DNA of 64,000 bases from a virus. Below, in pieces: positions 721 through 59,390 of this stretch. Every line of letters starts with the position of its first letter. The first letter of the stretch is position 1. The translations under genes and the position numbers were made by a program. The notes below the pieces were generated by a model, which made no database searches, was not told where the DNA came from, and worked only from the letters and a program-made list of their open reading frames with translations. The stretch lies in the IMG/VR virus record IMGVR_UViG_3300028535_000001; one strand, written 5' to 3'.

Positions 721-3039
721 TTATAAATCTTGTATCATCTTCGCTATCGTTTGATCCAACTTGATTTTCCACTCCTCCTTAAATCTCTGTTTATATTTAT
801 CTATTGTATCACTTGAACAAGCCCATTTATTTACATCTTTCTCTGATATTTTGGTATTTTCCAAGCCAGGTTGTGTAGGATAGCCTCTTTTCTTAGCGTC
901 CACAGGCGTTGCCTCTGGTGTTTCACCAGGAGTTACATCTTTTGTATGGTTGGCATAGTCAGCACCTATCTCAAAAGATTCTTTTTCTAATTTCTTAACA
1001 ATATCTTTCTTATATTCTTCAAATTTTTGTTTATATTTCTTTTCAGATACAGCCTCAAAACCATAGTCTACATTTAAATTATGTTCTCTAACTGCAACCT
1101 CTTTATCACTGGCGATTGGTATACAATCCCATATCCAGGCTTTGTGTAAATTGTTTTTATTATCTTCTAGTACAATATAGTTTGTACCTTTTCTCTTAAC
1201 TGTTCCTTGTATATCTTGTTTGGTATAGTCTACCTTTTCTCCGATATTGAATATCATGTCTCTTAAATATAGGTCTCTTATCTGTTGTTGACCAAATTCT
1301 TCCATGCTTAACATTGGTTTTTTGCCACCACCTAAATGAATATTAACTGAACTTTCTGGAATAGCACCTAGTCTCATACCTTTTCTAACATCTTTCATTA
1401 AATGGCTTGCGTCCACACCATTAGGTAACCCTCTTTTAAATCCTTCTAAATCTCCCTTAACAGCCGCCGCTCTCATTTTACTTGCACTCATACCTGAAGC
1501 TCCGTCTGCGTCTGGATCCCTTTCACCAGCTGACAACACATTAATGTTATCAAAGTTATAATAACCATGTCTTGATCTCACATCGTTATACTTGTTTAGT
1601 ATAGTTTCAAATTCTCTTACTCTATCACTACCTACTACCATAAAAATTTCTGTATAACCTTTGTTATGTAGATTAGTAGCAATATCTAATATCATATTTG
1701 TTTTATTAATTTCTATATTTCTTGCATGAGCAGGAAACATCTTTTTCATATATGATAATTTCTGACTAGCAGATAATGGATTCTTTTTACTGTCTTCACT
1801 TCTACTTAAATAAATTTTATGGTCGTTTGCTCTTACTGATTTAACTTTTCTAATAAGTTTTTCATGGCCAATAGTTGGTGGATTAAATCTACCAAAAGTA
1901 AATGCCATTGATTTTCTTCTTCTAACTGCCTCATGTACGGACTCTGGTAAGCCAGCGTCTCTAACTGCTTTACCAAATTCATTATAATCTATACCAGCAT
2001 GTTGAGCCGCCTTGTTCTTGGCGTCTTTCATACCTTGTCTTAAATATTTAAGATATAAATCTACACCTGCTTTCATTCTTGGTGCTTTGATTGTTCTTCT
2101 CATTAAATCATTCCAAGCACTAGCAACAGATTCTAAATTCATTTCATCTATTTGTTCTTTTGTTAAAGATTTTATTTCATCATCGGTAACTTTACCATCT
2201 TCTAAAACTTCTTTACACTTCTTATAAAATTTTAAGTAATGGTATTTTTCCAACATCTTATAGATAACTGCTTTAGGTAATCTATTTTTAATACCATATT
2301 TTCTTATTTGATCTGGTGTCATGTCACTATTAAATGCTGATCTTCTTTCTGCGTCAACACCATCACCTACTTTTACAATCTGTTCAATACTATCTTCTAT
2401 TTCTTCTAATTTCTCATTAATTTTTTCTTGTAGATTTAAAATATCATCTGGTTTTAATTCAATTAATTCATGGTAATCTATTATATCTCTCTTTAATTCA
2501 CCTTTAACTACATCTATTTCTTGTACTTTTCTTTCAAATTCTTTTACATATAAGTTTGTATCAAAAGAAAAATCTTCTGGTCTTTTAACAAACTCATCGT
2601 TTTCTATATCAAACACTGCGTCTGCTTTTTTATTTTGATCGTCATATGTTGTTTGATCTGTAATAAAATAATAATTGATTGGGTGTTTTGTGCCTGGTAT
2701 TAATTTACCTTGTATGTTATCAGGATTACTTGCTGACAAATACTTTTTAGATAGTGTTAATCTTTGTTCTTCTTGGTCTTTTTTTGGTACATCAAACAAT
2801 ATATTGATGTCTAGATCAGCGTCATTTCTATATCGCTTAGTTAGAATTGATCCTATTAATGCTATCTTAATCACAGGATATTCCTCAAATTTTTTAATCT
2901 GATCTTGTATTTGTTTCTTGACACTAGGTTTCATTTTAGGGTCTTTAGTATCGGCCTTATCAAATACACCTGGCGCATATGTTCTACGAGGTATATCTAT
3001 GATACTTTCTTGTATTGTAAATTCTTTAAAATTCTTCAT
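721..3039 (-). CDS. Multidomain protein: N-terminal Pol-beta-family nucleotidyltransferase fused to an HxGH cytidylyltransferase/NMNAT-like domain
   Basis: GSILT...DADLDINI is a GS..DxD motif. FTFGRFNPPTIGHEKL, VVGSDR and SASKMR fit the HxGH NTase superfamily. Start moved to MKNFKEF (3039) because it forms an ATGA overlap with the upstream stop. Confidence 0.75.
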   Translation of the reverse strand: MKNFKEFTIQESIIDIPRRTYAPGVFDKADTKDPKMKPSVKKQIQDQIKKFEEYPVIKIALIGSILTKRYRNDADLDINILFDVPKKDQEEQRLTLSKKYLSASNPDNIQGKLIPGTKHPINYYFITDQTTYDDQNKKADAVFDIENDEFVKRPEDFSFDTNLYVKEFERKVQEIDVVKGELKRDIIDYHELIELKPDDILNLQEKINEKLEEIEDSIEQIVKVGDGVDAERRSAFNSDMTPDQIRKYGIKNRLPKAVIYKMLEKYHYLKFYKKCKEVLEDGKVTDDEIKSLTKEQIDEMNLESVASAWNDLMRRTIKAPRMKAGVDLYLKYLRQGMKDAKNKAAQHAGIDYNEFGKAVRDAGLPESVHEAVRRRKSMAFTFGRFNPPTIGHEKLIRKVKSVRANDHKIYLSRSEDSKKNPLSASQKLSYMKKMFPAHARNIEINKTNMILDIATNLHNKGYTEIFMVVGSDRVREFETILNKYNDVRSRHGYYNFDNINVLSAGERDPDADGASGMSASKMRAAAVKGDLEGFKRGLPNGVDASHLMKDVRKGMRLGAIPESSVNIHLGGGKKPMLSMEEFGQQQIRDLYLRDMIFNIGEKVDYTKQDIQGTVKRKGTNYIVLEDNKNNLHKAWIWDCIPIASDKEVAVREHNLNVDYGFEAVSEKKYKQKFEEYKKDIVKKLEKESFEIGADYANHTKDVTPGETPEATPVDAKKRGYPTQPGLENTKISEKDVNKWACSSDTIDKYKQRFKEEWKIKLDQTIAKMIQDL

Positions 3040-3728
3040 ACTCTTTTCTTTGCTTGTAATTCTTTTGCTATCCACTGTTTGGCTAGATAGTTATTTGGTG
3101 TTTTATTAATATATCTTCTAATATATTTTGAAGCTGTTGCAATTGTATTGGTTACTAATTCTTTTTCAGACCTATTATTATCCACAATTAACAAGTTTTG
3201 TGGTCTGAATATACTTTGAAAAGAACCAATGTTAGATTGTACTTTTATCCAACTATTCTTTACAATGTATTCAGGTATTGATCTAGGTCTATTCTTGTTT
3301 CTTTCTACTGCAACCTCTAAACTTGTGTTTACAAAAATCATATAACAATCATAACCAAGTGCTGTTAACATTGAATGTTGTCTAGAGATTATAGATTTAT
3401 CACGACCAGTTGCGTCAATAACAAGACCTAATCTTCCTTTTACATAGGTATCTAATTGAGTATTCGCTGTAAGTTTTGCTCTGTCTCGTACTATATTTCT
3501 AAAGTATTCTTCCTGATCTGGCATTTTCAAAGATAGATTTGCCTTCAACAATCCTCTTTCAAAGATAGTATCCGAGTTTACTATTTTTAATCCTATGCCA
3601 GCAAAAGCGGCTTGTGTAACAAATGATTTACCTGAACCAGGTCCACCTGCTAAGAAGAAAGCTTTAAAAATGCCTCTGTCATAAACACCTTCATTTAAAA
3701 AGCTTTGTACTTCTTTTAAGTTTTTCAT
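3036..3728 (-). CDS. P-loop kinase (zeta-toxin/AAA_33-like)
   Basis: FLAGGPGSGKS Walker A, VNSD, LVIDATG, AVERNKNRPR lid motif. Confidence 0.7.
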   Translation of the reverse strand: MKNLKEVQSFLNEGVYDRGIFKAFFLAGGPGSGKSFVTQAAFAGIGLKIVNSDTIFERGLLKANLSLKMPDQEEYFRNIVRDRAKLTANTQLDTYVKGRLGLVIDATGRDKSIISRQHSMLTALGYDCYMIFVNTSLEVAVERNKNRPRSIPEYIVKNSWIKVQSNIGSFQSIFRPQNLLIVDNNRSEKELVTNTIATASKYIRRYINKTPNNYLAKQWIAKELQAKKRV

Positions 3729-4375
3729 TACTCTCCCGCTTTTGTATACTTCTTATATTTTTTTGTTGTTTTTTTATCCACCACTCCAGCTTGACTTTGC
3801 TCTACCATTATTTCGTTCATGTCTTTAGCATAGTCTCTTATAGCATTAACAACTGCGAAAAGACCGTCTCGTCTTTTTGGAGTTAATACATCTATGAAAC
3901 CTATTCCAGCAATTTGATTGTCGTCCACTTCCAAAATTTCTTTTGGTGGGTGTCCTGATAAAATTGATTGAAGTATATACATTGCTCCTCTTGCCTCGTG
4001 AGAATCAGCGTCTACTTCAAATTCCATGTTTTCACCTTTAAGCTGTGGTAATAACCATACTTGGCTTACACAACCATATATTCTATAACCGTTTATTCTT
4101 TTATCGTCATCAAGTTTAACTATGCCACGTCCTTGTTCTAGCATATAGTAAAACTTTTCTTTGTCATCCAATTGAGAAAAATTATGGCTCCATGTACCAA
4201 GCTTTTCCTGGATTGACATACCAGCCATTTGACTGTCGCCAAATACAGGCGTCTTCTCTGTTTCCATCATTTCTTTCTCCTCTTGTTCTGCAACTTTTAT
4301 TTCAGCATCCATATTTTTTTTAGCTGACTTTGCAATTGCTTTGGATAGTTTTTTCATACCACCTTTTATATACAT
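3728..4375 (-). CDS. sufE: SufE/CsdE-family Fe-S sulfur-acceptor protein with N-terminal extension
   Basis: IYGCVSQVWL (conserved Cys), DADS...RG, LTPKRRDGL, all typical of SufE. Confidence 0.85.
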   Translation of the reverse strand: MYIKGGMKKLSKAIAKSAKKNMDAEIKVAEQEEKEMMETEKTPVFGDSQMAGMSIQEKLGTWSHNFSQLDDKEKFYYMLEQGRGIVKLDDDKRINGYRIYGCVSQVWLLPQLKGENMEFEVDADSHEARGAMYILQSILSGHPPKEILEVDDNQIAGIGFIDVLTPKRRDGLFAVVNAIRDYAKDMNEIMVEQSQAGVVDKKTTKKYKKYTKAGE

Positions 4376-4637: not shown

Positions 4638-5222
4638 TTATTTGTTTTTAACCTTATTTATTATCTTCTTAGCTATACTCTCTGGCGTATCACCTTCTGC
4701 TTTAATAGATACGAAACCAGGTTTATCTCTGTAGTAGTCAACCACAGGACCTGTTTCTTTTTTATATAAAGCAATTCTGTCTTTAATAACATCAGGTTTA
4801 TCATCAACTCTACCTCTAGCAGTTAGTCTTTTGATAACTTCTTCCTGACTTACATCTAAAAATACCACATTATCTATATCAATACCTTTCTTTTCCATGT
4901 CTCTAACTTGTTGCATATATCTTGGAAAGCCATCAAATACAAAACCATCTGCTTTGTCAACGGCGTCAAATACAAGTTTTAAAACTATATCATTTGGAGC
5001 AAAGTGACCTTTACCTAAATTAGATAATCTTTTGGCCATTTCACCACCTTTTTCTTTCTCTTTTCTCAATAGTTCACCTGGGTATATGTGTGGTATATTA
5101 AATTCATTTGATATAAATTTTGCATATGTAGATTTACCACTGCCTGGACCACCAATTAAAATAATTTTTGGTTGTCTAGCTTCTTCTAAAAATTTGTTTA
5201 TGTACTCTATAAATGATTTCAT
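4638..5222 (-). CDS. adk: Adenylate kinase (short-lid type)
   Basis: GGPGSGKST, GELLR, FDGFPR, RGRVDD...RIALY motifs. Confidence 0.9.
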   Translation of the reverse strand: MKSFIEYINKFLEEARQPKIILIGGPGSGKSTYAKFISNEFNIPHIYPGELLRKEKEKGGEMAKRLSNLGKGHFAPNDIVLKLVFDAVDKADGFVFDGFPRYMQQVRDMEKKGIDIDNVVFLDVSQEEVIKRLTARGRVDDKPDVIKDRIALYKKETGPVVDYYRDKPGFVSIKAEGDTPESIAKKIINKVKNK

Positions 5223-11886: not shown

Positions 11887-12990
11887 TTATCTTATTATAT
11901 CTATTTTTGCCTCTGGTGTCCATATTTCTAATTCAGTTCTTAATCTATTTTGTTCTTTCAGTTTATTGTACCGAGATTCAGCTTTCTTTTTCCACCAATC
12001 TATTATATTATTTAGGTGGAATTTATCCCAATTATCGCCTTTAACTATTTTCTTTGTGTTGTCTTTTACTATATCTAGATAGTTCTTAATACCATAATCA
12101 CTAACATAGTATCTTTTTCTTTCAGTTAGCTTCTTTGCATTACTTATAGTTGTATTAAATCTTTCTAAATCACTTTTGTTTAAACTTCTCTTTATTAAAC
12201 CAATAATGGCATTTGTTAGTTTTAACTTTCTACTAGAGGCGTCATCTTTAACAAGTTTACCTACAGCACTATCAACAAACGTTGCAAGATCATGGAAAGG
12301 TTTACCATGTATCAAAGGTATAAAATCACTATCAGTTAATCCTTTGTATCTTAAATATGGTTTCATACCATCATATTGACTTGATGATTTACTATTACCA
12401 TATAGACTTGTAGTTTCAAACAATGATAAGTTCATACCATATTTGTTATTTAATTTTTCTCTTATTGTATGACTACAACATATGGCAGCCAATAGTTTAC
12501 CACCTAGATAATTAAAACCAAAAGGTTGGGTTGGTACTATTACAAATCCCATTATAGATGTTTTATTAAAACTTACTAATTCTGGTACGTGAGTTAATAA
12601 TTCATTTCTTGGTTTCATATTTATAACTGGAGAACCACATCTTATAAAACCTACCCACTGATTAGTATTCTTTTCTTTTATTGCGATCTTTAAATTTTTA
12701 CCAGGCACACTTGACATATTAGTATGAGAAGAAGTCATATTTAATAATGTATCATATGTTTCATTATCAGGTTCCAATATTTCAAATTCCATATCTTTAG
12801 GCGACATATCAAATTTAGAAAACATATCACTATCTAAAGTCATTCCAGGTAATGCAGCCGGTATATTTCCTATTTGAGATAATTTTTGATCTCTCATATA
12901 TTCATCTATACGACTAAACTTTTCAAAGTAATTATTGAATATACCAGCACAATGCAATGCTTGGTCATCTGTTAAATTTTTAGTTTTCAT
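11887..12990 (-). CDS. DUF4338 (DruA-like) family protein, paralogue 1
   Basis: [35 protein letters not shown]. Confidence 0.6.
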
Positions 12991-13560: not shown

Positions 13561-13708
13561 AACTCAAAGCTAAATACCTGAAAATAAAAATTGTCATTAT
13601 AAATCTTGGTATAGACCAAGATGTTTTCATTGCTATTAATTGACCTAAAGAAAATGACCAATGTAAGGTAATTAATAGTATTAATGTTAAATCAAATGTT
13701 TTTATCAT
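13550..13708 (-). CDS. 52-aa hydrophobic protein
   Basis: Hand-translated ([22 protein letters not shown]...); overlaps both neighbours. Confidence 0.55.
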   Translation of the reverse strand: MIKTFDLTLILLITLHWSFSLGQLIAMKTSWSIPRFIMTIFIFRYLALSYGY

Positions 13709-13892
13709 TGTAGTCTGCTTTCAACTTGTCAACTTCTTCCTGTAGTTTTTTCTTTTCTCTCTGGTAATTATCATTAATCTCCAGAGCAATAGATAGTGAA
13801 TTTTCTAATTCTTTAATTCTATGATTTAATTTTTTATTTTCATCGGTCATATCCTCGTAAGGACGACCACTCTCATCATATTTAAGTGTCAT
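13692..13892 (-). CDS. Hypothetical coiled-coil protein
   Basis: ATGA overlap with nadA; heptad pattern. Confidence 0.65.
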
Positions 13893-14839
13893 TCATTTAC
13901 CATCCTCTCTATAGGTCGCCTTGCTTTTTTCATTATAGCATTTGGTATTTTCACCTCATATGTATTCATCATTAACGATTGTAATATTCCTGGTAAAGTA
14001 ATTCGTTTCATATGTGGACATAAATTACAAGGTCTAACAAACTCTACATTTGGATTCTCTACTGAAACATTATCACTCATTGAACACTCCGTAATCATTA
14101 ATACTTTACGTGGTTGTTTTTCTTTAACATAATTACTCATTTTAGATGTTGAACCTGTAAAGTCCACTTCAGCAATTACTTCAGGTGGACACTCTGGATG
14201 AGCTAAAATAATTATGCCTGGATTATCTTTTCTGTATTCTATAATTTCTTCAGCAGTAAATTTTTCGTGTACTATACAAGTACCGTGCCAAGATATAATT
14301 TTAACCTTTGTTTCTTTAGCAACATTTTTAGCAAGGTATTCATCTGGAAGAAATATAACTCTATCTACTCCCAACGATTCTATTATCTCAACTGCATTGG
14401 AAGATGTACAGCAAATATCTGTTTCTGCTTTAACATCAGCAGACGTATTCACATAAGTTACCACAGGTACACCTGGGTATTTTTCTTTTAATAATCTTAC
14501 ATCTTTACCTGTAATAGATTCTGATAATGAACAACCTGCTTTAGGGTCTGGAATTAAAACTGTTTTATCTGGACTTATCAACTTTGCTGTTTCTGCCATA
14601 AAATAAACACCACACATCAAAATAATATCTGCTGATGTTTTCGCTGCTTCTTTTGCTAGTAATAAAGAATCACCAACTATGTCAGCAACACAATGATATA
14701 TTTCTGGTGTCATATAATTGTGTGCTAGTATTACAGCATTCTTTTCTTTTTTTAATTTATTAATACTTTCAATATAAGGAGCGTGAAACTTCCACTCAAT
14801 CTCTGGTATAACTTTTTCTACTTTTTTATATAAACTCAT
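13889..14839 (-). CDS. nadA: Quinolinate synthase ([4Fe-4S])
   Basis: [51 protein letters not shown]; the three Fe-S Cys are present. Confidence 0.95.
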
Positions 14840-17325
14840 CCGAAAAATGCCTCCAGATTTGCTTTCTTTTCCTGTGACCAGCCTATAGATTGTAATATAA
14901 ATCTCATAGGATCAAGGAATGTTTTTTCAAATTGTGTTTCGTAATCTATATATTTCTTTAAATTAAATTCATATGGTAACGTTGTAATATAACTAATCAC
15001 ATCAAATCTAAATGGATTTGCCTGTATTAATTTAAGAAACTTTATCTTATCTCCTTCTTTTATGTAAGGATATTTCTTATGTAATTTCATTTCTTTTAAT
15101 TTATGATTATATATTAAAGAACCTTTTACATGTATTGGTGTTCCTTTACTAAAGATAGTTGCTGGGTTTCTATACTTACTAATATTATTACATGATCTAG
15201 GAAAGGATATTTGTTCTGGTACCATTTCTAAAAATTCTTTTTTAAAGTCTGCAATAAATTTTTGTAAAGTAAGTTCATCTTTATTCATAATAATTTGAAT
15301 TGCCTCTTTAATTTTACCTCTACAAACTTGTGGTGTTGATGATTTAACTGCCTCAATACCCATAATCTTTAATTTAGGATCAGCTAATCTTACTCCTTCA
15401 TCATCTAATACGTTTAACATATATCTTTTCTTTGCAACCCATATTCCTTTGTTGGCAATTATTTCTCGTTTCATTACCATACAATTTTTAAATGCATTTG
15501 AATATTCAGATAGTTCATTAAAACATTTTTTAATATATGGTTCTATTCTACTATCAACAACCTTATCAATAAAATTACATATTTGTTCATTTGTTTTACC
15601 TGGACAAGTCTTTTCAACTAACTTATCCATCGTCACATAAATTGAATCTGTATCAGACGCAACAATATAATCAAACTCTGTTTTTAAAATCTTATTCATA
15701 TAATCATTTACTTTTTCCTCAATATATCTAATAATGAATTGACCTGTTGTAGTAATAGCACTTGCTTGTCTTACATCATAAAATCTAAAGTATTGGTTAC
15801 CAACTGCACCATAAGCTGAGTTTAAGGCAATCTTTCTTGCCCATTGTATATTGTGACATCTAGAAATTTCTTTTAATAATTCGGGATCCTTATTCTTTTG
15901 ATATAATTTTTTAGCAGTTAACATACGTTTCTTATAAACAACACGTTCATTGTACATGGTCTCCATCATTTCTGGTAAGAAACCTTGACTATCATTTTTA
16001 AACTTCGCACCGTTAGGTGTTACACAGGCATTTTCATTTTTTAAATAAGATAAATCTATTTTCCGTTTTAACATTTTATTTACAGAAATACCTGAAGGAT
16101 CCTGTCCTATTATTTTCTCTGGCGAAATATTATATTGTATAATGATATGTGGATATAGTGAATTAATATCAAAAGAAACTACCCACTTATGCTGACCGAC
16201 TTTAGGGTCTTTTACATAAGCGCCTTCATATTTTGTATCTTTAATATGTTCTTCTCTTGGTGGTATACATATATTTTTTGCCAATAAATGATTTGCAATT
16301 AAAGTATCCCATACTCTTACTTGTGAAAATATATCATCATAGTTTACTTTAGATTCATATGCAACAGTTAATGCTAGTTCAATTAAACCAAGTTTATCTT
16401 CCATGGCGTCAACAATTTCAACGTCTTGTATGTTATAATCAATAAACTTTTGGAAATCTTTTTCATAAAAATCTTTAAATGTTTCAAAAGGATTTACATG
16501 TTTCTTTTTACCTAGTTCTAACTCACCAATAAAATCTAGTTTATAACTTTCTTGTCTTGTTGGAATAAACCATCTATACAGATCAAGGTAATCTAACATC
16601 ACAATACCTTTTAAAGTATATGTTGTTTGAGGTCTACCTCTTACTATGATTTCATTTTTTTCTATTAAATTCCATGGCGACATTCTAGTTGCAACCTTTT
16701 CGCCTGCAATTAATTTAATTCTATTCATTAAATATGGTAAATCAAAAAACTTGGTATTCCATCCTGTAATAACATCTGGATGATTCTTTAACCAAAATTT
16801 CATAAACTCCATTATTAAATGCTGTTCAGTTTTACATTGTACATAGGTAACATCTAGTCTATCTGTTTTATATGCACCAGTTCCCCATGTTATAATCTGT
16901 TTGTTAGTTTGATTTTTAACAGTGATACAAATAATTTCTTCGGTAGGGTTTTCTACATCTGGAAAACCATCTGTTACTGTAGTCTCAATATCCATTGTGA
17001 ATATCTTAATAAACTTTTTCTCCCATTTTATATTTTTAGGAAATTGGTCATTAATATATTGATAATGAAAACGTTCTAAACCGTAAATAGGAGAATTATC
17101 GGTTGCTACGTCTCGTCTAAATCTTCTTGCGTCATTAATGTTTTTGAATTTAATAGGATTAAGATTGCGATTATCTAAAGTTTTAAATTTTGTATCTTTT
17201 TGTGTGATAGAATATAGAGTAGGACCAAAGTCTATCTTTTCTTTATAGTCTTTGCCATCATGTATACCTCTAACTAGAAGTTTACCTTTGTGTTCTATAA
17301 CTGATTTATAAAAGTTGGTCATCAA
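14836..17325 (-). CDS. 43: Family B DNA polymerase gp43
   Basis: DIET (ExoI), [27 protein letters not shown]. Confidence 0.97.
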
Positions 17326-17638
17326 GTAAATGTAAAGTTATGCCATCAAGTTCTTTTGTCAATGAAATTTGACAACTCAATCTGCTAATACCTTTTTTAT
17401 ATCCTTCTTCATATTCTAATATCTCTTGTTCACTGCTATTATAATCTATGGGATTTAATTTGGCAATCCAGGCATTGTTTACATGTACGTGACAAGTAGC
17501 ACAAGCACAAGAACCACCACAACTAGCAGGAATTTCCGGTAAACTTGCCTCTTTAGCTGCCTCCATTATAGTCCAACCAGCAGGCACCTTTACTTGGACT
17601 TTCTCATTGTTTGTCCTAATAAAGTTTACTGTTATCAC
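17306..17638 (-). CDS. fdx: 2Fe-2S ferredoxin (ISC/adrenodoxin type)
   Basis: CGGSCACATCHV...SRLSCQ. Confidence 0.92.
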   Translation of the reverse strand: MITVNFIRTNNEKVQVKVPAGWTIMEAAKEASLPEIPASCGGSCACATCHVHVNNAWIAKLNPIDYNSSEQEILEYEEGYKKGISRLSCQISLTKELDGITLHLLDDQLL

Positions 17639-17995: not shown

Positions 17996-19462
17996 TTACT
18001 TCTGTTCTTTGTCAACCGGTTTTAGTCTTTTACTTAATACAAACGTTCTATTAGGGTTAACACTAACATTCATTTGTCTCATTAAATCTCTATTAATTAA
18101 TAAGTCTGATCCTGATCTTGGTCTACTATCTAATCCTACCTCTACATCTTTATAGGTAAAACCATTAAAGGTTAAATCTAATAATATTGTAGGTCTAATT
18201 TCAGAAGGTTCGTTTGTAGCATTTGCTCTAAAAATTTTACTTTGACCAAATTTAGGTTTCTCATAAGTTTTACCGTTATATTTCCATTTAACAGTTTTCT
18301 TATCTGACATAATTTTATCGGCATGTAAAGCACAAGCTTTTGATCCGTTACCACTATCAAACTTAGCTCTAACTTTAGCTACATCGGCAACGTCAACAGT
18401 TTCTAACCAACCACATTCTATAAGTGATTGTCTATCCCAATGACTTCTATCTTGAACATAATCAACAAGATATTCCATCATTTTTTCACCGTCTATTCTA
18501 CCAGATGGTTCTGGATCAGAATAATAATCCTTGTATTGGTAACCTTGATAGTCAGCACCTGATCCTGGACTACCATTGATTTCTAAAATGTATGGTTTTT
18601 TATTGTGTATTATATGGTCAACTCCTACCATATATGCCTTTGAAGCTCTTGAAGCTTTTAAAATTAGTTCATGTTCTTCATCATTTAAAACATAAGGGTG
18701 TGCCTCGGCACCTCTATGAGTATTTGATCTAAAGTCATATGAGCTATGTACTCTTTTTGTACTTGCAATAACTTTGTTATCTAAACAGAAAGTTCTTACA
18801 TCAAACTTGACAGGCATAAATTCTTGTATTAAAAGTTCAGATTCTAATTTCCACATTGCTTGTACAGTTGCAACAAGACCCTCATAACTTTCAATTTTAA
18901 TTACTCCGATACCTTGTGTACCTGTTAATGTCTTTAAGATAAGTGGAAACTTACCACCAATCATATCTATTCCAGTTCTTATATTATTCTCGTTAGATAT
19001 AAATGCTGTTCTTGGTGTAGCTATACCAAACTTTTCAAATAGTAAAGCTGACGTTAATTTGTTATCACAAGTCATCATAGCTGCTCTTGTGTTTAACATA
19101 AATGATTGTGAGTTTTGAAAGGCAGAGATTAAAGACAGTCCAGCTTCGTTCTCCACTGCACCACCTCGTGTTACAACAACGGTATCTTTACCTGTAAAGG
19201 TATGTTCACCATTCTTACCATCGTAATTATAGACAGTAAGGGTGTTCTTATCTTCGTCTTTTGCTGTGATTATAGTAGATGTAGTATTAACAATAACGCA
19301 TTTAGTCTTTTGTTTTTTACACGCCTTTTCTATAAGTTCAACAGTTGAATCCTTTTGAGGATCCTCTGAATCATTTATAGTAAGTATAGCAACCGTAATC
19401 GGTTTATCTTTACGACCTTGGTTTTGCTCTGTTATATAATCTCTAAACTTTGGTATCTGCAT
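17996..19462 (-). CDS. rimK: RimK-family ATP-grasp ligase fused to a C-terminal RimB-like (retropepsin-fold) protease
   Basis: CDNKL, PLILKTLTGTQGIGV, IQEF, DVR, FRSNTHRG, GVD, LEINGSPG; C-terminal GWLE...AKFDSG...RP...LLINRD. Confidence 0.8.
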   Translation of the reverse strand: MQIPKFRDYITEQNQGRKDKPITVAILTINDSEDPQKDSTVELIEKACKKQKTKCVIVNTTSTIITAKDEDKNTLTVYNYDGKNGEHTFTGKDTVVVTRGGAVENEAGLSLISAFQNSQSFMLNTRAAMMTCDNKLTSALLFEKFGIATPRTAFISNENNIRTGIDMIGGKFPLILKTLTGTQGIGVIKIESYEGLVATVQAMWKLESELLIQEFMPVKFDVRTFCLDNKVIASTKRVHSSYDFRSNTHRGAEAHPYVLNDEEHELILKASRASKAYMVGVDHIIHNKKPYILEINGSPGSGADYQGYQYKDYYSDPEPSGRIDGEKMMEYLVDYVQDRSHWDRQSLIECGWLETVDVADVAKVRAKFDSGNGSKACALHADKIMSDKKTVKWKYNGKTYEKPKFGQSKIFRANATNEPSEIRPTILLDLTFNGFTYKDVEVGLDSRPRSGSDLLINRDLMRQMNVSVNPNRTFVLSKRLKPVDKEQK

Positions 19463-20329: not shown

Positions 20330-20692
20330 TTATTTAAGTTCTGCTGTTCCGCCAGCGTCTTCTAACTTCTTCTTTAATTCTTCAGCATGTGCTATTTCAA
20401 GGTTTTCTTCAACCGTTTTAGGTAAATCTTCAACAAAAGTCTTTGCTTCCATTAAACCTAATCCTAATACTTCTTTAACAACTTTTAATACACCCATTTT
20501 CTTTTCACCAAAACTTTTTAATATAACTGTAGCTGTACTCTTTTCTTCTGAAACTGCAACAGGTGTTGGAGCAACTGCTTGTAAATTACTTGCTTGTATT
20601 CCCCACTGATCTTCCATCATTTTGGCCATATCAGCAGCTTCTTGCATAGTTAATTTACCTATTTCATTTACTAATTTGTTAATGTCTGTCAT
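20330..20692 (-). CDS. rplL: 50S ribosomal protein bL12 (L7/L12), full length
   Basis: NTD LTMQEAADMAK...WGI, Ala/Pro hinge, CTD KMGVLKVVKEVLGLGLMEAK.FVE..P...KKKLEDAGGTAELK. Confidence 0.92.
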   Translation of the reverse strand: MTDINKLVNEIGKLTMQEAADMAKMMEDQWGIQASNLQAVAPTPVAVSEEKSTATVILKSFGEKKMGVLKVVKEVLGLGLMEAKTFVEDLPKTVEENLEIAHAEELKKKLEDAGGTAELK

Positions 20693-22642: not shown

Positions 22643-22671
22643 ATACTATATCAATTTGTTCAAAATGTCAA
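22643..22671 (-). promoter_or_regulatory. sigma70-type promoter for tRNA-Gly/gp45
   Basis: TTGACA-17-TAGTAT ending 7 nt before the tRNA 5' end. Confidence 0.7.
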
Positions 22672-23192
22672 GCCTCCAAATATTTCAAGACATTTTCTGG
22701 TGAAGATACTCCATAAGGATCCGATGGATCATTAAATTCTTTACCAGGTTCAACGAACATTTTTATTATATCACCATTGTGTACAATAGCTGCATATCTC
22801 CATGAACGGTAACCAAAACCAATGGCCTCTATGTTAACTAACATATCTAAACTCTTTGTTAGTTCGCCATTGCCATCTGGTATCATTTTAATGTTCTTGA
22901 TTTGTTCGTTGGTTTTCCATGCATTCATAACAAAAGAATCATTTACTGATATACAATAAACCTCATCTATGCCATGTTCTTTGAATTTCGTATACAGGTT
23001 GTCATAACCTGGAAGTTGTTGTGATGTACAAGTTGGTGTAAAAGCTCCTGGTAAACTGAATATAATTACTTTCTTATCTTTAAAGTAATAGTCAGTAGTT
23101 CTATCAACCCATTTACCATTGGAAAAATTACAAGCACCTGATTCGGATATATCACCTTCACGTGTTTTAAATTTTATATTCTTTATTTCCAT
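22668..23192 (-). CDS. Peroxiredoxin (Prx5/redoxin type)
   Basis: FSLPGAFTPTCT, SVNDSFVMNAW, DGNG, RSWRY. Confidence 0.92.
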   Translation of the reverse strand: MEIKNIKFKTREGDISESGACNFSNGKWVDRTTDYYFKDKKVIIFSLPGAFTPTCTSQQLPGYDNLYTKFKEHGIDEVYCISVNDSFVMNAWKTNEQIKNIKMIPDGNGELTKSLDMLVNIEAIGFGYRSWRYAAIVHNGDIIKMFVEPGKEFNDPSDPYGVSSPENVLKYLEA

Positions 23193-24350: not shown

Positions 24351-24797
24351 TTACTTGATTTTTATAGTTCTAGGCTTCTTTGAGTCTGGAACAATCTTCT
24401 CTAAAGATACCTTTAAAAGACCATCTTTTAGTTCAGCACCCTTTACTTCGCAGTCTTCTGCTACAGTAAATGACTTACTAAAATATCTTTTAGCTATACC
24501 TTTGTGAAGTATACCATCATTGTCCTCAACCTCTTTAGTCTGCTCGTCTTTATTAGACTTGATTGTTAGAACATTGTCAGCATAGTCAACAGTTACATCA
24601 TTTTTAGAGTATCCTGCTAATGCTAATTCAATATCATAGGTAAACGAACCTGTTTTAACGATATTGTATGGTGGATAGTTTCCCATTCTCGTAAAATCTG
24701 TATCTAACATATGTTCAAAGTTGTCAAACATACTGTCAAACCCTACGGTTATTGGTCTTAAACTATTAAAGAATTGAATTGCTTTTGAATTGGTCAT
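24351..24797 (-). CDS. hsp20: Small heat-shock protein Hsp20 (IbpA-like)
   Basis: YPPYNI, IELALAG, LHKGIAKR.F..SF, AELKDGLLKV. Confidence 0.95.
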   Translation of the reverse strand: MTNSKAIQFFNSLRPITVGFDSMFDNFEHMLDTDFTRMGNYPPYNIVKTGSFTYDIELALAGYSKNDVTVDYADNVLTIKSNKDEQTKEVEDNDGILHKGIAKRYFSKSFTVAEDCEVKGAELKDGLLKVSLEKIVPDSKKPRTIKIK

Positions 24798-29149: not shown

Positions 29150-30481
29150 CTATCTTCCTACTTGATTTAAGTACTTTCCTTTACACTCTTCCCAATTTAA
29201 GTATATCAAATCATCATAAAAATGTGATTCTTTAGAATATCTATTTGTTTTTTCTAGACTCTTTATTCTTTTAGAGGCATGTTTTTCTTTCCACACCTTA
29301 ACTAATGCTTCGGTAGACGAATCGAATCGTTTCTTTAAACCATCATCTTTTACTTCGCCTCTTAAATACTCATATGTATTCTCATATAATCTTGCAAAGT
29401 ATATACCTCTAGCATGATCTGTTTTTATATACTCTTTAGGTATACCAAGTCTTGAATAAGTAAACATATATGACCTATTTTTATGATCTCTTTTTAATGG
29501 TTGGCCATTGGCTCTTGTTGCCACATACCATTCAAAGAATTTTCTAGTATGATTTTTCTTTAACCATTGTTTAATTAAATTTTTAGTTTCTAATTGTGGT
29601 TCATATGAAACGGAACCCATAGTGAAACCCATACGTTTCCAATATTTTAAACCATCATATTGACTTAAAGTATTCGCTTTTGCCTTACCATATAAAGATG
29701 TTGTGGTAACACCAACTAACTTATCGCCATACTTTTCTTGCCATATTCTTTGTACATCATCTGATAAACATAGATATGCTAATAATTTACCACCAGTAAA
29801 ACTATAACCTAAAGGTTGTGTTGGTACAATAGAGGAACCAATAGCAGTATGATTAATCATACCACCAAATGTTTTACTATGTCTATCCCAACCAATAGCA
29901 CTGTCTCTTGGAGTTAAATCCATAAAGTCACCAGATATACAAATGACACCTAGATGTTTACCTGATCTGTTATCATTTACATTAAAGAATAGTTGTCTAC
30001 CAATATTACTATTGTTTTTCATAGTAGACAAAAACGTTCTTAATGTATTCCAGTTTTCTGATAGTTGTTGAGTTCTTACTGCTTTACCGTTAAATCTTTT
30101 TGTAGTATCGTCTGTATATTCTAATACAGGTTCTAATTTATCATAGTCTTCAGGTGATTCTGGAATCCAGATATTATTTCTAACTGTATCTATTTGAGTT
30201 CTTTGTTCAGGTGATGTTAATATTTTTTCAGTACCATACAATGTAGTTGATTCGGTTGTAGGATATTTCTTATGTACTTCTTGCCACTTTTGGAATAATG
30301 TATACTCTTGTACGGTCATTTTAGACACGTATCCAAGGTCTTTTTCTATTTCTTCTTTAAGATGTTTTAGATCAACATCTTCTACTTTAGATATATCGTT
30401 TTCTTCTTGGAATTTCTTCCACTTTTTTTCAACGCCTTCTAAATCTTGTTTTTCATGTATATCAAAGTCTTCTTTATTCAT
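29150..30481 (-). CDS. DUF4338 (DruA-like) family protein, paralogue 2
   Basis: IVPTQPLGYSFTGGKLLAYLCLS, TTTSLYG, SQYDG. Confidence 0.6.
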   Translation of the reverse strand: MNKEDFDIHEKQDLEGVEKKWKKFQEENDISKVEDVDLKHLKEEIEKDLGYVSKMTVQEYTLFQKWQEVHKKYPTTESTTLYGTEKILTSPEQRTQIDTVRNNIWIPESPEDYDKLEPVLEYTDDTTKRFNGKAVRTQQLSENWNTLRTFLSTMKNNSNIGRQLFFNVNDNRSGKHLGVICISGDFMDLTPRDSAIGWDRHSKTFGGMINHTAIGSSIVPTQPLGYSFTGGKLLAYLCLSDDVQRIWQEKYGDKLVGVTTTSLYGKAKANTLSQYDGLKYWKRMGFTMGSVSYEPQLETKNLIKQWLKKNHTRKFFEWYVATRANGQPLKRDHKNRSYMFTYSRLGIPKEYIKTDHARGIYFARLYENTYEYLRGEVKDDGLKKRFDSSTEALVKVWKEKHASKRIKSLEKTNRYSKESHFYDDLIYLNWEECKGKYLNQVGR

Positions 30482-30518: not shown

Positions 30519-31232
30519 TTACAGATTCTTACGTTTTTCGTAGAGTTTCATCTGTTTAGCAGCCTTCTTATAAGCCATATCCAGTTTCATTTTAGATACA
30601 CCATCTATAAAATTCTTACCTAATATATGATCGTATTCATGTTGGAATACTCTACTAATCATACCATCAAGGTGGCCTTCTCTTAATTGTCCATCTTCGT
30701 CTTCGTATTTAACAACTACTTTTCTAGGCCTTACTATTGATAAGAATACAAAAGGAAAGGTTAAACAACCTTCTTTCATCATTACTGTTTCCTCACTTTT
30801 TGAAATTATAAATGGATTAAAACATGCCATCTTTAACCCTTTTTCTATAGATGGATGATCGCCTAATGTAAACATATTGAAAGGCAATCCAACCTGATTA
30901 CAGGTTAAACCTAATCCACCATATTTTCTCATAGTTTTGAACATAGCGTCTGCTAATTCTTTTCTATCTTTAAAACCCTCATCTTTTAACATATCATCGC
31001 TAAAAGGTGCTATGGCTGAATTTACTCTCGGGTCTCTTGGTGGGACCAATTTTAAACCTTTTTTATCGTCCACTTCAGTGGTTCCCTTCTCCTTTATTTT
31101 GTCAGTATTTACTTGGTTTTTTGGCTTTGCCTTCATAAACGTTTGAGCATTATTAATATAATTATCCTGTTTAGGTATCTTCTCCCTTTTTGTTTGTGGT
31201 GGTCTCATTACATTTTTTTGTGTACTACCCAT
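30519..31232 (-). CDS. def: Peptide deformylase with basic N-terminal extension
   Basis: GLGLTCNQVG, EGCLT, QHEYDH. Confidence 0.92.
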   Translation of the reverse strand: MGSTQKNVMRPPQTKREKIPKQDNYINNAQTFMKAKPKNQVNTDKIKEKGTTEVDDKKGLKLVPPRDPRVNSAIAPFSDDMLKDEGFKDRKELADAMFKTMRKYGGLGLTCNQVGLPFNMFTLGDHPSIEKGLKMACFNPFIISKSEETVMMKEGCLTFPFVFLSIVRPRKVVVKYEDEDGQLREGHLDGMISRVFQHEYDHILGKNFIDGVSKMKLDMAYKKAAKQMKLYEKRKNL

Positions 31233-56748: not shown

Positions 56749-57600
56749 TTACGTAGCGTTTCCTATGATTGTTTTTTGTGTAACACCACTAGAGTTTTTG
56801 ATTAACAACGTCACAGCTGAGCTGAAATTAGATGAATCAATAGTAGCTACTTGAGCACCTTTTGATCCAGTAAATCCAACAATACCTTGGTTTGATAATT
56901 CAACCCATTGAGTTGAGTTACCATCATTGTAGTAGAAATATTGTACGCCAGTAGCGTTATCTACCCAAATGTCTCCCTCTCCAACACCTGAAGTAGGTGG
57001 AGTAGCGGCAGTTGTAATATCAAGGTTTCCTTCTGATCCTGTAAATCCTATATCACCTTTTGATCCTGTAAATCCTATATCACCTTTTGATCCTGTAAAT
57101 CCTATATCACCTTTTGATCCTGTAAATCCTATAACTCCTTGAGCACCTGTAGCTCCTAGAGAACCTGTGAAACCAATGTCTCCTTTAGAACCTGTAAAAC
57201 CAATATCACCTTTAGAACCTGTGAAACCAATTGTACCAGAAAGATCAGATACATATGAGTATACTGTTCCGTTCCATAAATACAATCTAGAATTTTCGGC
57301 GTCTGTTAGTGATCCATTTTCAATTATAGCAAATTCACCAGTGACTATGCCACTTGGTGATGTGTCTGCTGATAGAGCTGCAACACTTGTATAAGTCTTC
57401 GCAATGTTGAATCCTAAACCAGTAGCACCTAAAGAGCCTGTAAAACCAATATCACCTTTAGAACCGGTGTAACCGATTGATCCAGTGAAACCTGCTGTTA
57501 ACGGCTGTAGCGCCCACCCATTTCCGTTCCATTTCCACTGACGTGTGCCGAGTGTGTATAGATCGTTTAACGAGGGACTATTTGGAAAGTTTATTGCCAT
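56749..57600 (-). CDS. Collagen-like (GFTGSKGDI) fibre protein
   Basis: Gly-X-Y repeats; perfect 27-bp tandem DNA repeat at 57034-57133. Confidence 0.8.
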   Translation of the reverse strand: MAINFPNSPSLNDLYTLGTRQWKWNGNGWALQPLTAGFTGSIGYTGSKGDIGFTGSLGATGLGFNIAKTYTSVAALSADTSPSGIVTGEFAIIENGSLTDAENSRLYLWNGTVYSYVSDLSGTIGFTGSKGDIGFTGSKGDIGFTGSLGATGAQGVIGFTGSKGDIGFTGSKGDIGFTGSKGDIGFTGSEGNLDITTAATPPTSGVGEGDIWVDNATGVQYFYYNDGNSTQWVELSNQGIVGFTGSKGAQVATIDSSNFSSAVTLLIKNSSGVTQKTIIGNAT

Positions 57601-57779
57601 TTTGTTTGTCTCCTAATTTATTGTTATGTTTTGTCTTTTTTAATTAAAAAATTCAATACTATACATCTTATATCAATTATTTTATATTGTAAGAAAGGTT
57701 TCGTTCTTTCTACATTCTATTTATAATACATAAACACTGCACAAGACATATAATACAGTATTTGTCAAATTTATTTTAA

Positions 57780-59390
57780 CTACGTACCAATTGTACCACC
57801 ATTTAGGCACCAACCGGTACCATCCCATACGCAGGAGAAGGTATTGGCATAAACGCCACCTGTAGTATCTAATCTCCATATATGTGAAGCTTTTAATTCT
57901 GTTGCACCTGTAACAATACTAACAACTTTTGCGTTAGAAACTGTAATATCGCTATATGTTGATGTTGTTATACCTGATTTATAGAAAATTAACTCTTGTC
58001 CTATATAAGTGCCGTCTGCAAGTGTATAATTTATACTTGATGTAATAAAGTGATTACGTTTTGTTATATCTAAAGTGCCTGGAGCTTCATTCGCTATGTA
58101 TTCACTTGTTGTTATATGAGAACCTGCTATTGTTAATTTATCACTTGTAAGTCCAATGCTTACTTCATTTTCTCCCATTTTTAAACTGTTATCGCTTAAG
58201 AATAAGTGTCTAACTTTTCTATCAGCACTACCTATGTCATATGTTGAATTTGCTACAGGTAATAAATGTCCACTATTTGTAATATCCCAACGGTCAGTAC
58301 CTTCAGTTTTTATAGTAACTTCGCCATCTGTACCAGTATCAACTACTGTCACAGCACTATTGCCAACTGTTATAGAACTTCCTCCTGTTCCTGCCGAACC
58401 TGTAAATCCAGTTGAGCCTGTAAATCCTACTATACCAGCATTTGCTAATTCTACCCATTGATTACTGTTGCCGTCATTCATGTAGAAGTATTGAATACCT
58501 GTTGCGTCATCTATCCAAACATCTCCAAGTCCTGCTGAAGCAGGTGGAACTGAATTTAATGTAACATCTAAATTTCCTTCTGATCCTGAATAACCAATTA
58601 CACCTTGATCGCCTTTTGATCCTGAATACCCAATTGATCCTGTATAACCAATTGATCCAAGATCACCTTTTGATCCTGTAAATCCTATTATACCTTGAAT
58701 ACCTTGATCGCCTTTTGATCCTGTATATCCTAAATTTCCTTTTGATCCAGTAAAACCAACGGCGCCAGCTGTACCTGCTGTACCTTTTGATCCTGTGAAA
58801 CCTACACTACCAATATCTCCTTTTGATCCTGTAAATCCTGTTGCACCTGTTCCACCATCAGCACCTTTTGATCCTGTAAAACCTACAGTACCAATATCTC
58901 CTTTTGATCCTGTAAAACCTACAGCGCCAGTATCTCCTTTTGATCCTGTATAACCTAAATTTCCTTTTGAGCCAGTGAAACCAACGGCGCCGGCTGTACC
59001 AGTATCTCCTTTTGATCCTGTAAAACCAATTGCACCTGCTGATCCTGTATAACCTACTCCACCACTTGTACTGAATAATGACCAGTTACCGTCCGCATTT
59101 GGAACAGCACCTGTTATGGTACTACGAACTTCTGAACCTAAAAGTTTATAAGTGTAATACTTGTCGCCTGTGTAAGTTGTGGAACCGGAAGTATATGTGT
59201 TCTTAACATAAACTAACATACCTTCCTGGATTCTTGCTCCAGCAATATCTGTTAATCTATCACTAACGTTACCTGTTATGGAATGGAGTGTACCTCTAAC
59301 TTCTGTATCTAATACAATTGGAGCATTAGTGCCGGTACTCCATGTACCTGGCCAGACGTTTCGGGTTAATCCATCGTAATTACTTGCCAT
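57780..59390 (-). CDS. Collagen-like tail-fibre protein
   Basis: Long G(F/Y)TGSKG Gly-X-Y tract; GHLLP..NSTYDIGS fibre motif. Confidence 0.8.
   Translation of the reverse strand: MASNYDGLTRNVWPGTWSTGTNAPIVLDTEVRGTLHSITGNVSDRLTDIAGARIQEGMLVYVKNTYTSGSTTYTGDKYYTYKLLGSEVRSTITGAVPNADGNWSLFSTSGGVGYTGSAGAIGFTGSKGDTGTAGAVGFTGSKGNLGYTGSKGDTGAVGFTGSKGDIGTVGFTGSKGADGGTGATGFTGSKGDIGSVGFTGSKGTAGTAGAVGFTGSKGNLGYTGSKGDQGIQGIIGFTGSKGDLGSIGYTGSIGYSGSKGDQGVIGYSGSEGNLDVTLNSVPPASAGLGDVWIDDATGIQYFYMNDGNSNQWVELANAGIVGFTGSTGFTGSAGTGGSSITVGNSAVTVVDTGTDGEVTIKTEGTDRWDITNSGHLLPVANSTYDIGSADRKVRHLFLSDNSLKMGENEVSIGLTSDKLTIAGSHITTSEYIANEAPGTLDITKRNHFITSSINYTLADGTYIGQELIFYKSGITTSTYSDITVSNAKVVSIVTGATELKASHIWRLDTTGGVYANTFSCVWDGTGWCLNGGTIGT

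What the first reader, a model, noticed from the sequence alone, without database searches (positions are those of the whole stretch)
13889..14839. Phage-encoded quinolinate synthase with its own Fe-S support (SufE, Fdx): a possible de novo NAD route
Seen: intact nadA translationally coupled to the DNA polymerase gene, an ISC-type ferredoxin on the other side of gene 43, SufE at 3728-4375, and an NMNAT-like HxGH domain in 721-3039. Established: NadA needs an oxygen-labile [4Fe-4S] cluster, and plant quinolinate synthase (SufE3) is a natural SufE-NadA fusion. Described phage NAD reconstitution pathways (NARP1/NARP2) are salvage routes. Inference: this phage boosts the de novo step, either to support replication or to offset NAD-depleting defences. 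nadB, nadC and nadE are not in this window, so host enzymes would be needed.
Basis: partly seen in the sequence, partly recalled or inferred. Interest (0 to 1): 0.75.

Follow-up and report, generated by a model that had tools for sequence, protein, structure and literature searches.

The report
Quinolinate synthase cassette in SAR11 phage
A T4-like virus of SAR11, the ocean's most abundant bacterium, carries an intact copy of NadA (the iron-sulfur enzyme that builds the NAD ring) as a swappable cassette just after its DNA polymerase gene, which suggests phages can boost new NAD synthesis and not only recycle NAD; the nearby iron-sulfur helper genes are ordinary backbone genes, not a kit dedicated to NadA.

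Summary
The gene at 13889-14839 (-) is a full-length quinolinate synthase. It passes the NCBIfam equivalog cut-offs, keeps all three [4Fe-4S] cysteines, and shares ATGA stop/start overlaps with gp43 upstream and a 66-aa ORF downstream.

- **Mobility:** nadA is a 1.1-kb flexible cassette. A 97-98% identical sibling phage carries GTP cyclohydrolase I in the same slot.
- **Spread and selection:** closely related nadA copies (75-98% aa) sit in at least five different marine phage backbones, with dN/dS of 0.04-0.21. They form one clade sister to SAR11 NadA (97/98 support).
- **Other NAD genes:** none is in the window. nadC is in 0 of 21 nadA-bearing viral contigs and nadE in 2 of 21.
- **SAR11 hosts:** they have nadA-nadC, NadE and SufS but no SufE, and many lack NadB.
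- **Fe-S support:** this is not a dedicated module. SufE and the ferredoxin are backbone genes present in nadA-less siblings (NadA in 0 of 20 SufE contigs; SufE in 1 of 21 nadA contigs).
- **"HxGH" domain:** it actually reads TIGH. It folds like PPAT and NadD equally well and is common in phages without nadA.
- **Anti-NADase role:** unlikely, since SIR2_2 and TIR_2 were each found in 0 of 101 SAR11 genomes.

I found no paper describing phage nadA. This scan has already noted phage nadA on other DNA.

The parts
13889..14839 (-). nadA, quinolinate synthase, 316 aa. Cluster ligands are C103, C188 and C274.
   Evidence: Purifying selection is shown.
13725..14835 (.). The 1,111-bp flexible cassette (nadA plus most of the 66-aa ORF). 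A 97-98% identical sibling phage (G011) lacks it and has 1,034 bp there encoding GTP cyclohydrolase I and a 157-aa ORF.
   Evidence: blastn breakpoints; ORFs and Pfam.
13692..13892 (-). 66-aa coiled-coil ORF whose ATG overlaps the nadA stop (ATGA). It travels with nadA in this backbone.
14836..17325 (-). gp43 family-B DNA polymerase. Its stop overlaps the nadA start.
   Evidence: It is 77% nt identical to Pelagibacter phage Mosig gp43.
17306..17638 (-). Adrenodoxin/putidaredoxin-type [2Fe-2S] ferredoxin with the Cx5Cx2C...C motif. It is a backbone gene, also found next to gp43 in Mosig, which has no nadA.
3728..4375 (-). Phage SufE: a SufE domain at residues 65-181 with invariant C102, plus a conserved N-terminal extension. 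It is a backbone gene of this phage group, and SAR11 hosts have no SufE.
721..3075 (-). 784-aa fusion protein: an N-terminal Pol-beta-type nucleotidyltransferase plus a central (T/H)xGH adenylyltransferase-fold domain (TIGH ... SASKMR). Substrate is unknown. It is a backbone gene, and the central domain is common in cyanomyophages.

Best explanation
nadA is a working quinolinate synthase carried as an auxiliary metabolic gene. It is a small flexible cassette in the slot just downstream of the DNA polymerase gene of a T4-like pelagimyophage, and it is transcribed and translated together with the replication genes. In the infected SAR11 cell it would add fresh NadA to the host's de novo NAD branch (iminoaspartate + DHAP -> quinolinate). 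Host NadC, NadD and NadE would complete the path to NAD. The likely benefit is to keep NAD(P) supply up during replication by replacing or raising the most fragile enzyme of the pathway, one with an oxygen-labile [4Fe-4S] cluster. SufE and the ferredoxin are general backbone genes of this phage group. They probably support Fe-S protein supply in a host that has SufS but no SufE. They may help NadA as one client among others but are not a NadA-specific module.

Shown here: the gene's identity and integrity, its cassette nature, selection, phylogeny and distribution, and the host gene content. Inferred: enzyme activity, the flux benefit, and any SufE-to-NadA help.
For: - **Identity:** NadA passes equivalog cut-offs, and the three Cys ligands and the AHNY, GDS, YVNT, TS(S/G)N, HPEC and GST blocks are invariant in 12 phage copies.
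- **Expression context:** ATGA overlaps at both ends and no promoter signal above chance.
- **Selection:** dN/dS is 0.04-0.21 across phage copies.
- **Spread:** the same clade of nadA sits in at least five backbones. A copy that is 98% aa identical (dS 0.057) lies next to a polymerase only 73% identical, which indicates lateral spread between phages.
- **Origin:** in the rooted careful tree, phage + SAR11 form a clade at 97/98, phages are monophyletic at 97/92 and SAR11 at 100/99 (a 71-row quick tree agrees).
- **Host pathway:** SAR11 genomes have adjacent nadA-nadC plus NadE, and NadA is in 86 of 101 family genomes.
- **Link to NAD:** NAD synthetase co-occurs with nadA in 2 of 21 viral contigs, including a complete 306-kb phage that also has a NAMPT-family gene.
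- **Abundance:** more than 120 protein clusters at >=90% identity in metagenomes, and the exact protein on 17 contigs.
- **SufE as a general helper:** the host has SufS but no SufE, and viral sufE without sufS was reported before in OMZ viromes (PMC8940887).
Against: - There is no biochemical evidence.
- Only one pathway step is encoded. nadC is in 0 of 21 contigs, so any gain depends on NadA being rate-limiting, which is assumed and not shown.
- About two thirds of the sampled SAR11 genomes lack a NadB equivalog (36 of 101 have one), and all five tested lack NadX. The source of NadA's substrate in many hosts is therefore unassigned.
- nadA is dispensable: a 97-98% identical sibling and eight further syntenic relatives lack it.
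- The rest of this phage's genome could not be searched.
- The host assignment rests on similarity to Mosig and on the NadA tree, not on an isolate.
Confidence: 0.6

Rival explanations
1. Counter-defence. Phage NadA refills NAD after NADase-type immunity (Thoeris, SIR2, DSR and similar), acting as a de novo analogue of NARP1, 2 and 3.
For: NAD-restoring pathways are an established phage counter-defence. A complete jumbo phage combines nadA with NAMPT-family and NadE genes.
Against: SIR2_2 and TIR_2 domains were each found in 0 of 101 sampled SAR11-family genomes. SAR11 is reported to carry very few defence or R-M systems (PMC7029224). A single de novo step needs four more host reactions and cannot reuse ADPR or nicotinamide, so it is a slow answer to acute depletion. 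Other NADase families were not searched.
Confidence: 0.12
2. Dedicated module. SufE and the ferredoxin exist in this phage to build and reduce NadA's cluster, as a split version of plant SUFE3.
For: All three genes lie within 14 kb on one strand. The SufE persulfide cysteine is intact. In another lineage SufB overlaps the nadA start. One further nadA contig has a SufE 10 kb away. The host lacks SufE.
Against: SufE sits in 26 syntenic viral loci, and NadA is in 0 of the 20 contigs behind them that were searched, including a 48.7-kb near-identical sibling. SufE is in 1 of 21 and SufBD in 1 of 21 nadA contigs, and neither is in the complete 306-kb genome. The ferredoxin sits at the same place in Mosig, which has no nadA.
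Confidence: 0.1
3. Another use. NadA is kept for quinolinate as a product in its own right (for example metal binding or a precursor of something other than NAD), or as an Fe-S or iron carrier.
For: nadC never accompanies nadA in phages. Many hosts lack NadB or NadX. nadA is repeatedly next to PCMT, SufB or a flavodoxin-like reductase rather than NAD genes.
Against: All catalytic and ligand positions of a canonical NadA are invariant. Hosts carry nadC directly after nadA. nadE co-occurs with nadA in two lineages. I know of no non-NAD role for NadA in bacteria (own knowledge).
Confidence: 0.08
4. Neutral passenger. nadA was picked up recently from a host and has no function for the phage.
For: It is a dispensable island gene.
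Against: The phage clade is old and distinct, only about 70% identical to any cell's NadA. It is spread over several backbones, under purifying selection, and intact in every full-length copy examined.
Confidence: 0.04

Closest known systems
NARP2 (NAMPT + NMNAT; Vibrio phage KVP40 NadV/NatV), NARP1 (Adps + Namat) and NARP3 (NadR + PnuC)
   Same: All are phage-encoded enzymes that raise the NAD level of the infected cell.
   Different: Those pathways rebuild NAD from nicotinamide, ADP-ribose or nicotinamide riboside, and each encodes a complete short route. Here there is a single enzyme of the aspartate de novo branch, with no pathway partner in the window and none but NadE in related contigs. 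No defence context was found.
Cellular quinolinate synthase NadA of Alphaproteobacteria, especially SAR11
   Same: Same family, length, ligands and motifs. The phage clade is sister to SAR11 NadA.
   Different: It is about 70% identical to the nearest cellular copies. In cells nadA is followed by nadC (and nadB in some). In the phage it follows gp43, and in other phages it sits next to PCMT, SufB or a flavodoxin-like gene.
Plant SUFE3 (SufE-NadA fusion)
   Same: A SufE domain with its active cysteine and a NadA are encoded by one genome.
   Different: They are not fused, lie 9.5 kb apart, and do not co-vary across phage genomes.
Viral sufE AMG of oxygen-minimum-zone viromes (PMC8940887)
   Same: A marine viral sufE without sufS, proposed to relieve a host limitation in Fe-S assembly. 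Here the inferred host has SufS and no SufE.
   Different: That work did not link sufE to a phage lineage, to SAR11 or to nadA.
Classical cyanophage AMGs that replace a fast-turnover host protein (such as psbA)
   Same: The logic of supplying a fresh copy of a labile bottleneck protein during infection (own knowledge; an analogy only).
   Different: A different pathway, and no evidence yet that host NadA decays or limits flux during infection.

Membership tests
Quinolinate synthase NadA (PF02445 / TIGR00550 / NF006878) | Full-length match above the curated equivalog cut-offs | tested here: met
   Pfam gives 374.7 bits over profile positions 2-294 of 295. NF006878 gives 362.3 bits against 294, and TIGR00550 gives 316.9 against 262.9.
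Quinolinate synthase NadA (PF02445 / TIGR00550 / NF006878) | Three cysteine ligands of the [4Fe-4S] cluster, one per domain | tested here: met
   C103, C188 and C274 align with the cluster cysteines of solved NadA chains and are invariant in 12 phage copies.
Quinolinate synthase NadA (PF02445 / TIGR00550 / NF006878) | Conserved substrate-site blocks (AHNY, GDS, YVN, TSxN, HPEC, GST) | tested here: met
   Shown by the alignment and the invariant columns.
Quinolinate synthase NadA (PF02445 / TIGR00550 / NF006878) | Forms quinolinate from iminoaspartate and DHAP | not testable with these tools
   This needs an enzyme assay or complementation.
Phage NAD reconstitution pathways NARP1/2/3 | Presence of the defining salvage enzymes (Adps + Namat; NAMPT + NMNAT; NadR + PnuC) | tested here: not met
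   No such family appears among about 70 window ORFs scanned with Pfam. NAPRTase/NAMPT is in 1 of 21 nadA contigs, and only in the unrelated jumbo phage. The genome outside the window was not searchable.
NMN/NaMN adenylyltransferase (for the 784-aa protein) | Match to NMNAT/NadD/NadR models, HxGH and ISSTxxR motifs, and a fold nearest to NMNAT | tested here: inconclusive
   NadR-NMNAT gives 23.9 bits against 341. The motifs are TIGH and SASKMR. Foldseek ranks PPAT/CoaD and NadD alike, at E about 1e-6 and TM 0.6-0.7. A family profile finds nothing in PDB sequences.
SufE sulfur acceptor (PF02657) | SufE domain above cut-off with the persulfide-accepting cysteine | tested here: met
   Pfam gives 91.2 bits against 27. 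GCVSQVW aligns to E. coli GCQSQVW. C102 is invariant in 8 phage SufE proteins. The protein falls below the NCBIfam equivalog cut-off (60 against 160), so it is a diverged member.
ISC-system ferredoxin Fdx (TIGR02007) | Equivalog-level match | tested here: not met
   It gives 40.6 bits against a cut-off of 132.1. It belongs to the wider adrenodoxin/putidaredoxin class.
SUFE3-like SufE/NadA functional pair | Fusion or consistent co-occurrence of SufE with NadA | tested here: not met
   NadA is in 0 of 20 SufE contigs, and SufE is in 1 of 21 nadA contigs.

The most novel reading that the evidence does not exclude
Marine phages of streamlined heterotrophs carry a mobile "fragile-cofactor-enzyme" cassette system. 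nadA hops between unrelated phage backbones, often together with PCMT, SufB or CDGSH partners. It occupies the same post-polymerase slot as other cofactor genes (folE). It works together with a phage SufE that gives a SufE-less host's SufS a new sulfur acceptor. On this reading the phage re-engineers both Fe-S supply and de novo NAD synthesis in SAR11, in hosts where even the NadB step is unassigned.
Probability: 0.25. Interest if true: 0.75.

Novelty: new variant of a known kind. Interest (0 to 1): 0.55.

Why it matters
- **A different route to NAD.** Phage manipulation of NAD is currently understood as salvage aimed at NADase immunity. A selected, laterally spreading de novo enzyme in abundant viruses of SAR11 points to a second, metabolic reason for phages to invest in NAD.
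- **A candidate bottleneck.** It marks NadA, an oxygen-labile Fe-S enzyme, as a likely bottleneck in the most abundant marine heterotroph.
- **A natural experiment.** Near-identical sibling phages differ only in nadA versus folE at one slot, which allows the fitness effect of an AMG to be measured.
- **Two host-side gaps.** Many SAR11 genomes have no NadB or NadX, and none of those tested has SufE although their phages carry it.

Tried and rejected
- **Whole-genome search failed.** The window's own genome is not held, and the 100-kb contig carrying the identical gene could not be searched. NAD genes elsewhere in this phage therefore remain unknown.
- **Complex prediction was closed.** No NadA-SufE or SufE-SufS interface test was run.
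- **The first trees could not be rooted.** The midpoint-rooted three-group tree cannot show sisterhood. A tree with the long-branch jumbo-phage NadA and no outgroup grouped the phage clade with other Alphaproteobacteria at 96/85. I set that result aside after adding 20-29 sampled Pseudomonadota NadA as outgroups, which gave phage + SAR11 at 97/98.
- **Profile search against PDB found nothing.** The profile of the nucleotidyltransferase domain had no match in PDB sequences.
- **Promoter and terminator scan was uninformative.** It found 36 sites against 30 +/- 5 expected, so no claim is made about a nadA promoter.
- **Literature searches found no paper on phage nadA.** I tried quinolinate synthase or nadA with phage, AMG, pelagiphage, virome and HTVC008M. 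The pelagimyophage genomics paper mentions neither NAD nor SufE.
- **Short contigs with 93% identical NadA (L020-L022)** were first suspected to be host DNA. No cellular genome exceeds about 71% identity, so they are treated as viral.

Full report
**What the window is.** All large ORFs from 700 to 61,400 lie on the minus strand and form a T4-like replication and structural genome.
- The genes include gp43, gp44/62/45, RegA, UvsX, UvsY, UvsW, gp41, gp46/47, gp23, gp20, gp18, gp19 and terminase.
- The nearest public phage is Pelagibacter phage Mosig EXVC030M (Kyanoviridae), at 77% nt identity over gp43.
- The window carries a ribosomal protein L7/L12 gene, a trait reported for pelagimyophage group PMP-A (PMC7029224).
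- The window's own record is not held.

**The observation.**
- The ORF at 13889-14839 (-) is a full-length NadA. Pfam gives 374.7 bits, two NCBIfam equivalog cut-offs are passed, and solved NadA chains match at E about 1e-67.
- C103, C188 and C274 align with the cluster ligands. These and the AHNY, GDS, YVNT, TS(S/G)N, HPEC and GST blocks are invariant in 12 phage copies.
- The gp43 stop and the nadA start share ATGA, with GGAGG 10 nt upstream. The nadA stop and the start of a 66-aa ORF also share ATGA.
- The exact protein in the same gene order occurs on 17 contigs from several samples, three of them from 500 m on Line P. It is not an assembly chimera.
- The ferredoxin (17306-17638) and SufE (3728-4375, active cysteine present) are real.
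The motif in the 784-aa protein is TIGH, not HxGH. The ferredoxin reaches only 40.6 of the 132 bits required for the ISC-Fdx equivalog and is best described as adrenodoxin/putidaredoxin type.
- No nadB, nadC or nadE is in the window (and the Pfam scans).

**nadA is a flexible cassette.**
- In Mosig, the MT-A70 methyltransferase follows gp43 directly.
- A 48.7-kb IMG/VR contig (G011) is 97.7% nt identical to the window up to the last base of the gp43 stop (window 14836), and 97.3% identical again from window 13724 onward.
- The 1,111 bp in between (nadA plus the 66-aa ORF) are replaced there by 1,034 bp encoding GTP cyclohydrolase I (246 bits) and a 157-aa ORF.
- Eight further syntenic contigs hold only a 157-180-aa ORF in this slot.
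- A second pelagimyophage lineage has nadA in the same slot. Its polymerase is only 73% identical, yet its nadA is 93-98% identical (dS 0.057 to the window), and it is followed by a glycosyltransferase-like gene and an epimerase. That pattern indicates lateral exchange of nadA between phages.

**Distribution and selection.**
- IMG/VR holds about 21 contigs with this nadA clade at 75-98% aa identity, in at least five unrelated gene contexts. Metagenomes hold more than 120 clusters at >=90% identity.
- Pairwise dN/dS is 0.04-0.21.
- The best cellular matches are about 70% identical: SAR11 single-cell genomes and Parvularculaceae.
- A three-group tree cannot be rooted, and a long-branch jumbo-phage sequence distorted an outgroup-free tree. 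After adding sampled Pseudomonadota NadA, a careful IQ-TREE analysis gives phage + SAR11 at 97/98, phage monophyly at 97/92 and SAR11 at 100/99. A 71-row quick tree agrees at 99.
- The phage clade is therefore an old offshoot of the SAR11 NadA lineage that has since moved among phages.
- The 56%-identical NadA of a complete 306-kb phage (G046) branches apart and looks like a separate acquisition.

**Is there a NAD pathway?**
- Among the 21 nadA contigs, nadC is in 0, NAD synthetase in 2 (a 69-kb contig and G046), and a NAMPT-family gene in 1 (G046).
- SAR11 genomes have nadA immediately followed by nadC, and they have NadE. NadA is in 86 of 101 sampled family genomes.
- A NadB equivalog is in only 36 of 101. 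It is absent from two complete chromosomes, which have only an SdhA-like paralogue.
- NadX is in 0 of 5.
- The two 101-genome tallies include one unpublished genome, G195. Without it they are 85 of 100 and 35 of 100.
- Phage NadA must therefore rely on host NadC, NadD and NadE, and in many hosts on an unassigned source of iminoaspartate.

**Fe-S support.**
- The phage SufE family (conserved N-terminus, invariant cysteine) was found in 26 viral loci. All share the window's backbone order: gp43 ... MT-A70, DruA-like, UvsX, gp41 ... Adk, SufE, kinase, 784-aa protein.
- None of the 20 underlying contigs that were searched has NadA.
- Conversely, SufE is in 1 of 21 nadA contigs and SufBD in 1 of 21.
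- The ferredoxin is next to gp43 in Mosig as well.
- Two facts keep a looser link alive. In one lineage a 479-aa SufB ends where nadA begins. And SAR11 hosts have SufS but no SufE (0 of 5, two of them complete genomes), so the phage SufE supplies something the cell lacks. A viral sufE without sufS was reported before in OMZ viromes (PMC8940887).

**The "NMNAT-like" domain.**
- The central 270 residues belong to a very large, apparently viral family: 4,232 representatives and 560 phage records, including HTVC008M, Melnitz and many cyanomyophages, none with nadA.
- The AlphaFold model (pLDDT 85.5) matches PPAT/CoaD and NadD equally well.
- An NMNAT role is possible but not shown, and the gene does not track nadA.

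**Counter-defence?**
- SIR2_2 and TIR_2 domains were each found in 0 of 101 sampled SAR11-family genomes.
- SAR11 is reported to have almost no R-M systems, and pelagimyophages lack the NAD-using Alt/Mod enzymes (PMC7029224).
- NARP1, 2 and 3 are all salvage routes, and the papers read do not mention NadA.

**Verdict.** The gene is real, functional-looking, mobile among marine phages and under selection. The best reading is an auxiliary metabolic gene that props up the host's de novo NAD branch at its fragile Fe-S step. The dedicated SufE/Fdx/NMNAT kit is not supported. I found no publication on phage nadA. This scan has noted phage nadA on several other genomes, so it is a recurring and apparently undescribed theme rather than a one-off.

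Noticed in passing
window 13725-14835 versus L163:4289-5322 (G011): The slot right after the gp43 stop is an AMG-swap site. It holds nadA + a 66-aa ORF here, GTP cyclohydrolase I + a 157-aa ORF in a 97-98% identical sibling, only a 157-180-aa ORF in eight relatives (one GNAT-like), nothing in Mosig, and nadA + a GT28-like gene + an unknown gene + an NAD-dependent epimerase in a second lineage.
   Followed up: yes
L007:9812-10504, L008:4073-4681, L010:7561-8205, L011:10944-11618, L016, L020:1184-1792: In 6 of 21 nadA contigs a protein-L-isoaspartate O-methyltransferase (PCMT, 175-194 bits) lies directly beside nadA, usually overlapping its stop. In L007 the PCMT carries a C-terminal CDGSH iron-sulfur domain. 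The reason for the nadA-PCMT pairing is unknown.
   Followed up: partly
L010:5293-18917 (IMG/VR contig 3300009103_001286): The gene order PCMT, 84-aa ORF, SufB, nadA lies next to uroporphyrinogen decarboxylase, coproporphyrinogen oxidase, a DAO-type FAD oxidoreductase and an Hsp70. This is a viral contig rich in cofactor and Fe-S genes, with a CheckV completeness of about 11%.
   Followed up: partly
SAR11 genomes G006-G010 and the 101 family genomes: Most sampled Pelagibacteraceae have nadA-nadC but no NadB equivalog (36 of 101 have one; the tally includes unpublished G195) and no NadX (0 of 5). The first step of their de novo NAD route is unassigned. The gene upstream of host nadA is a weak YgfZ/GCV_T-like protein (25.5 bits).
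   Followed up: partly
window 3728-4375; G006-G010: SAR11 genomes have a SufS equivalog but no SufE (0 of 5), while a whole group of their myophages carries a SufE with a conserved N-terminal extension (MYIKGGMKKLSKAIAK...).
   Followed up: partly
L160 / G046 (complete 305,833-bp phage with terminal repeats): A jumbo phage carries a distantly related NadA (56% identical) together with a NAD synthetase domain (in a 632-aa frame) and a NAMPT-family gene about 5 kb apart. It has no nadC, SufE, SufBD or PCMT.
   Followed up: partly
window 721-3075: A 784-aa fusion of a Pol-beta-type nucleotidyltransferase with the widespread phage "cytidylyltransferase" domain (TIGH/SASKMR). In the 1.8-billion-protein library the domain sits at the N-terminus of proteins from 250 to about 1,000 aa with varied C-terminal parts. 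A zeta/AAA_33 kinase (3036-3728) and Adk (4638-5222) are neighbours.
   Followed up: partly
window 20330-20692: A phage-encoded ribosomal protein L7/L12 (both Pfam domains) sits between the clamp-loader genes. This is known for pelagimyophage group PMP-A (PMC7029224).
   Followed up: no
window 11887-12990 and 29150-30481: Two DruA-like (Druantia) proteins lie in the replication module, scoring 29 and 59 bits. The first is conserved next to MT-A70 in all relatives.
   Followed up: no
window 17996-19462, 22668-23192, 24351-24797, 30519-31232: Further host-like genes: a RimK-family ATP-grasp ligase (488 aa, annotated as glutathione synthetase in Mosig), a peroxiredoxin, Hsp20 and peptide deformylase. 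The stress and redox flavour is consistent with protection of labile proteins.
   Followed up: no
window 56749-61426: Three consecutive large proteins carry collagen triple-helix repeats, probably fibres.
   Followed up: no
L141, L143, L144 (JGI 3300000259, 3300000173, 3300000264): The exact nadA allele was assembled from 500-m samples of Line P in the NE Pacific (record names LP_..._500). Mosig came from an oxygen minimum zone. A link between low oxygen and nadA carriage was not tested.
   Followed up: no
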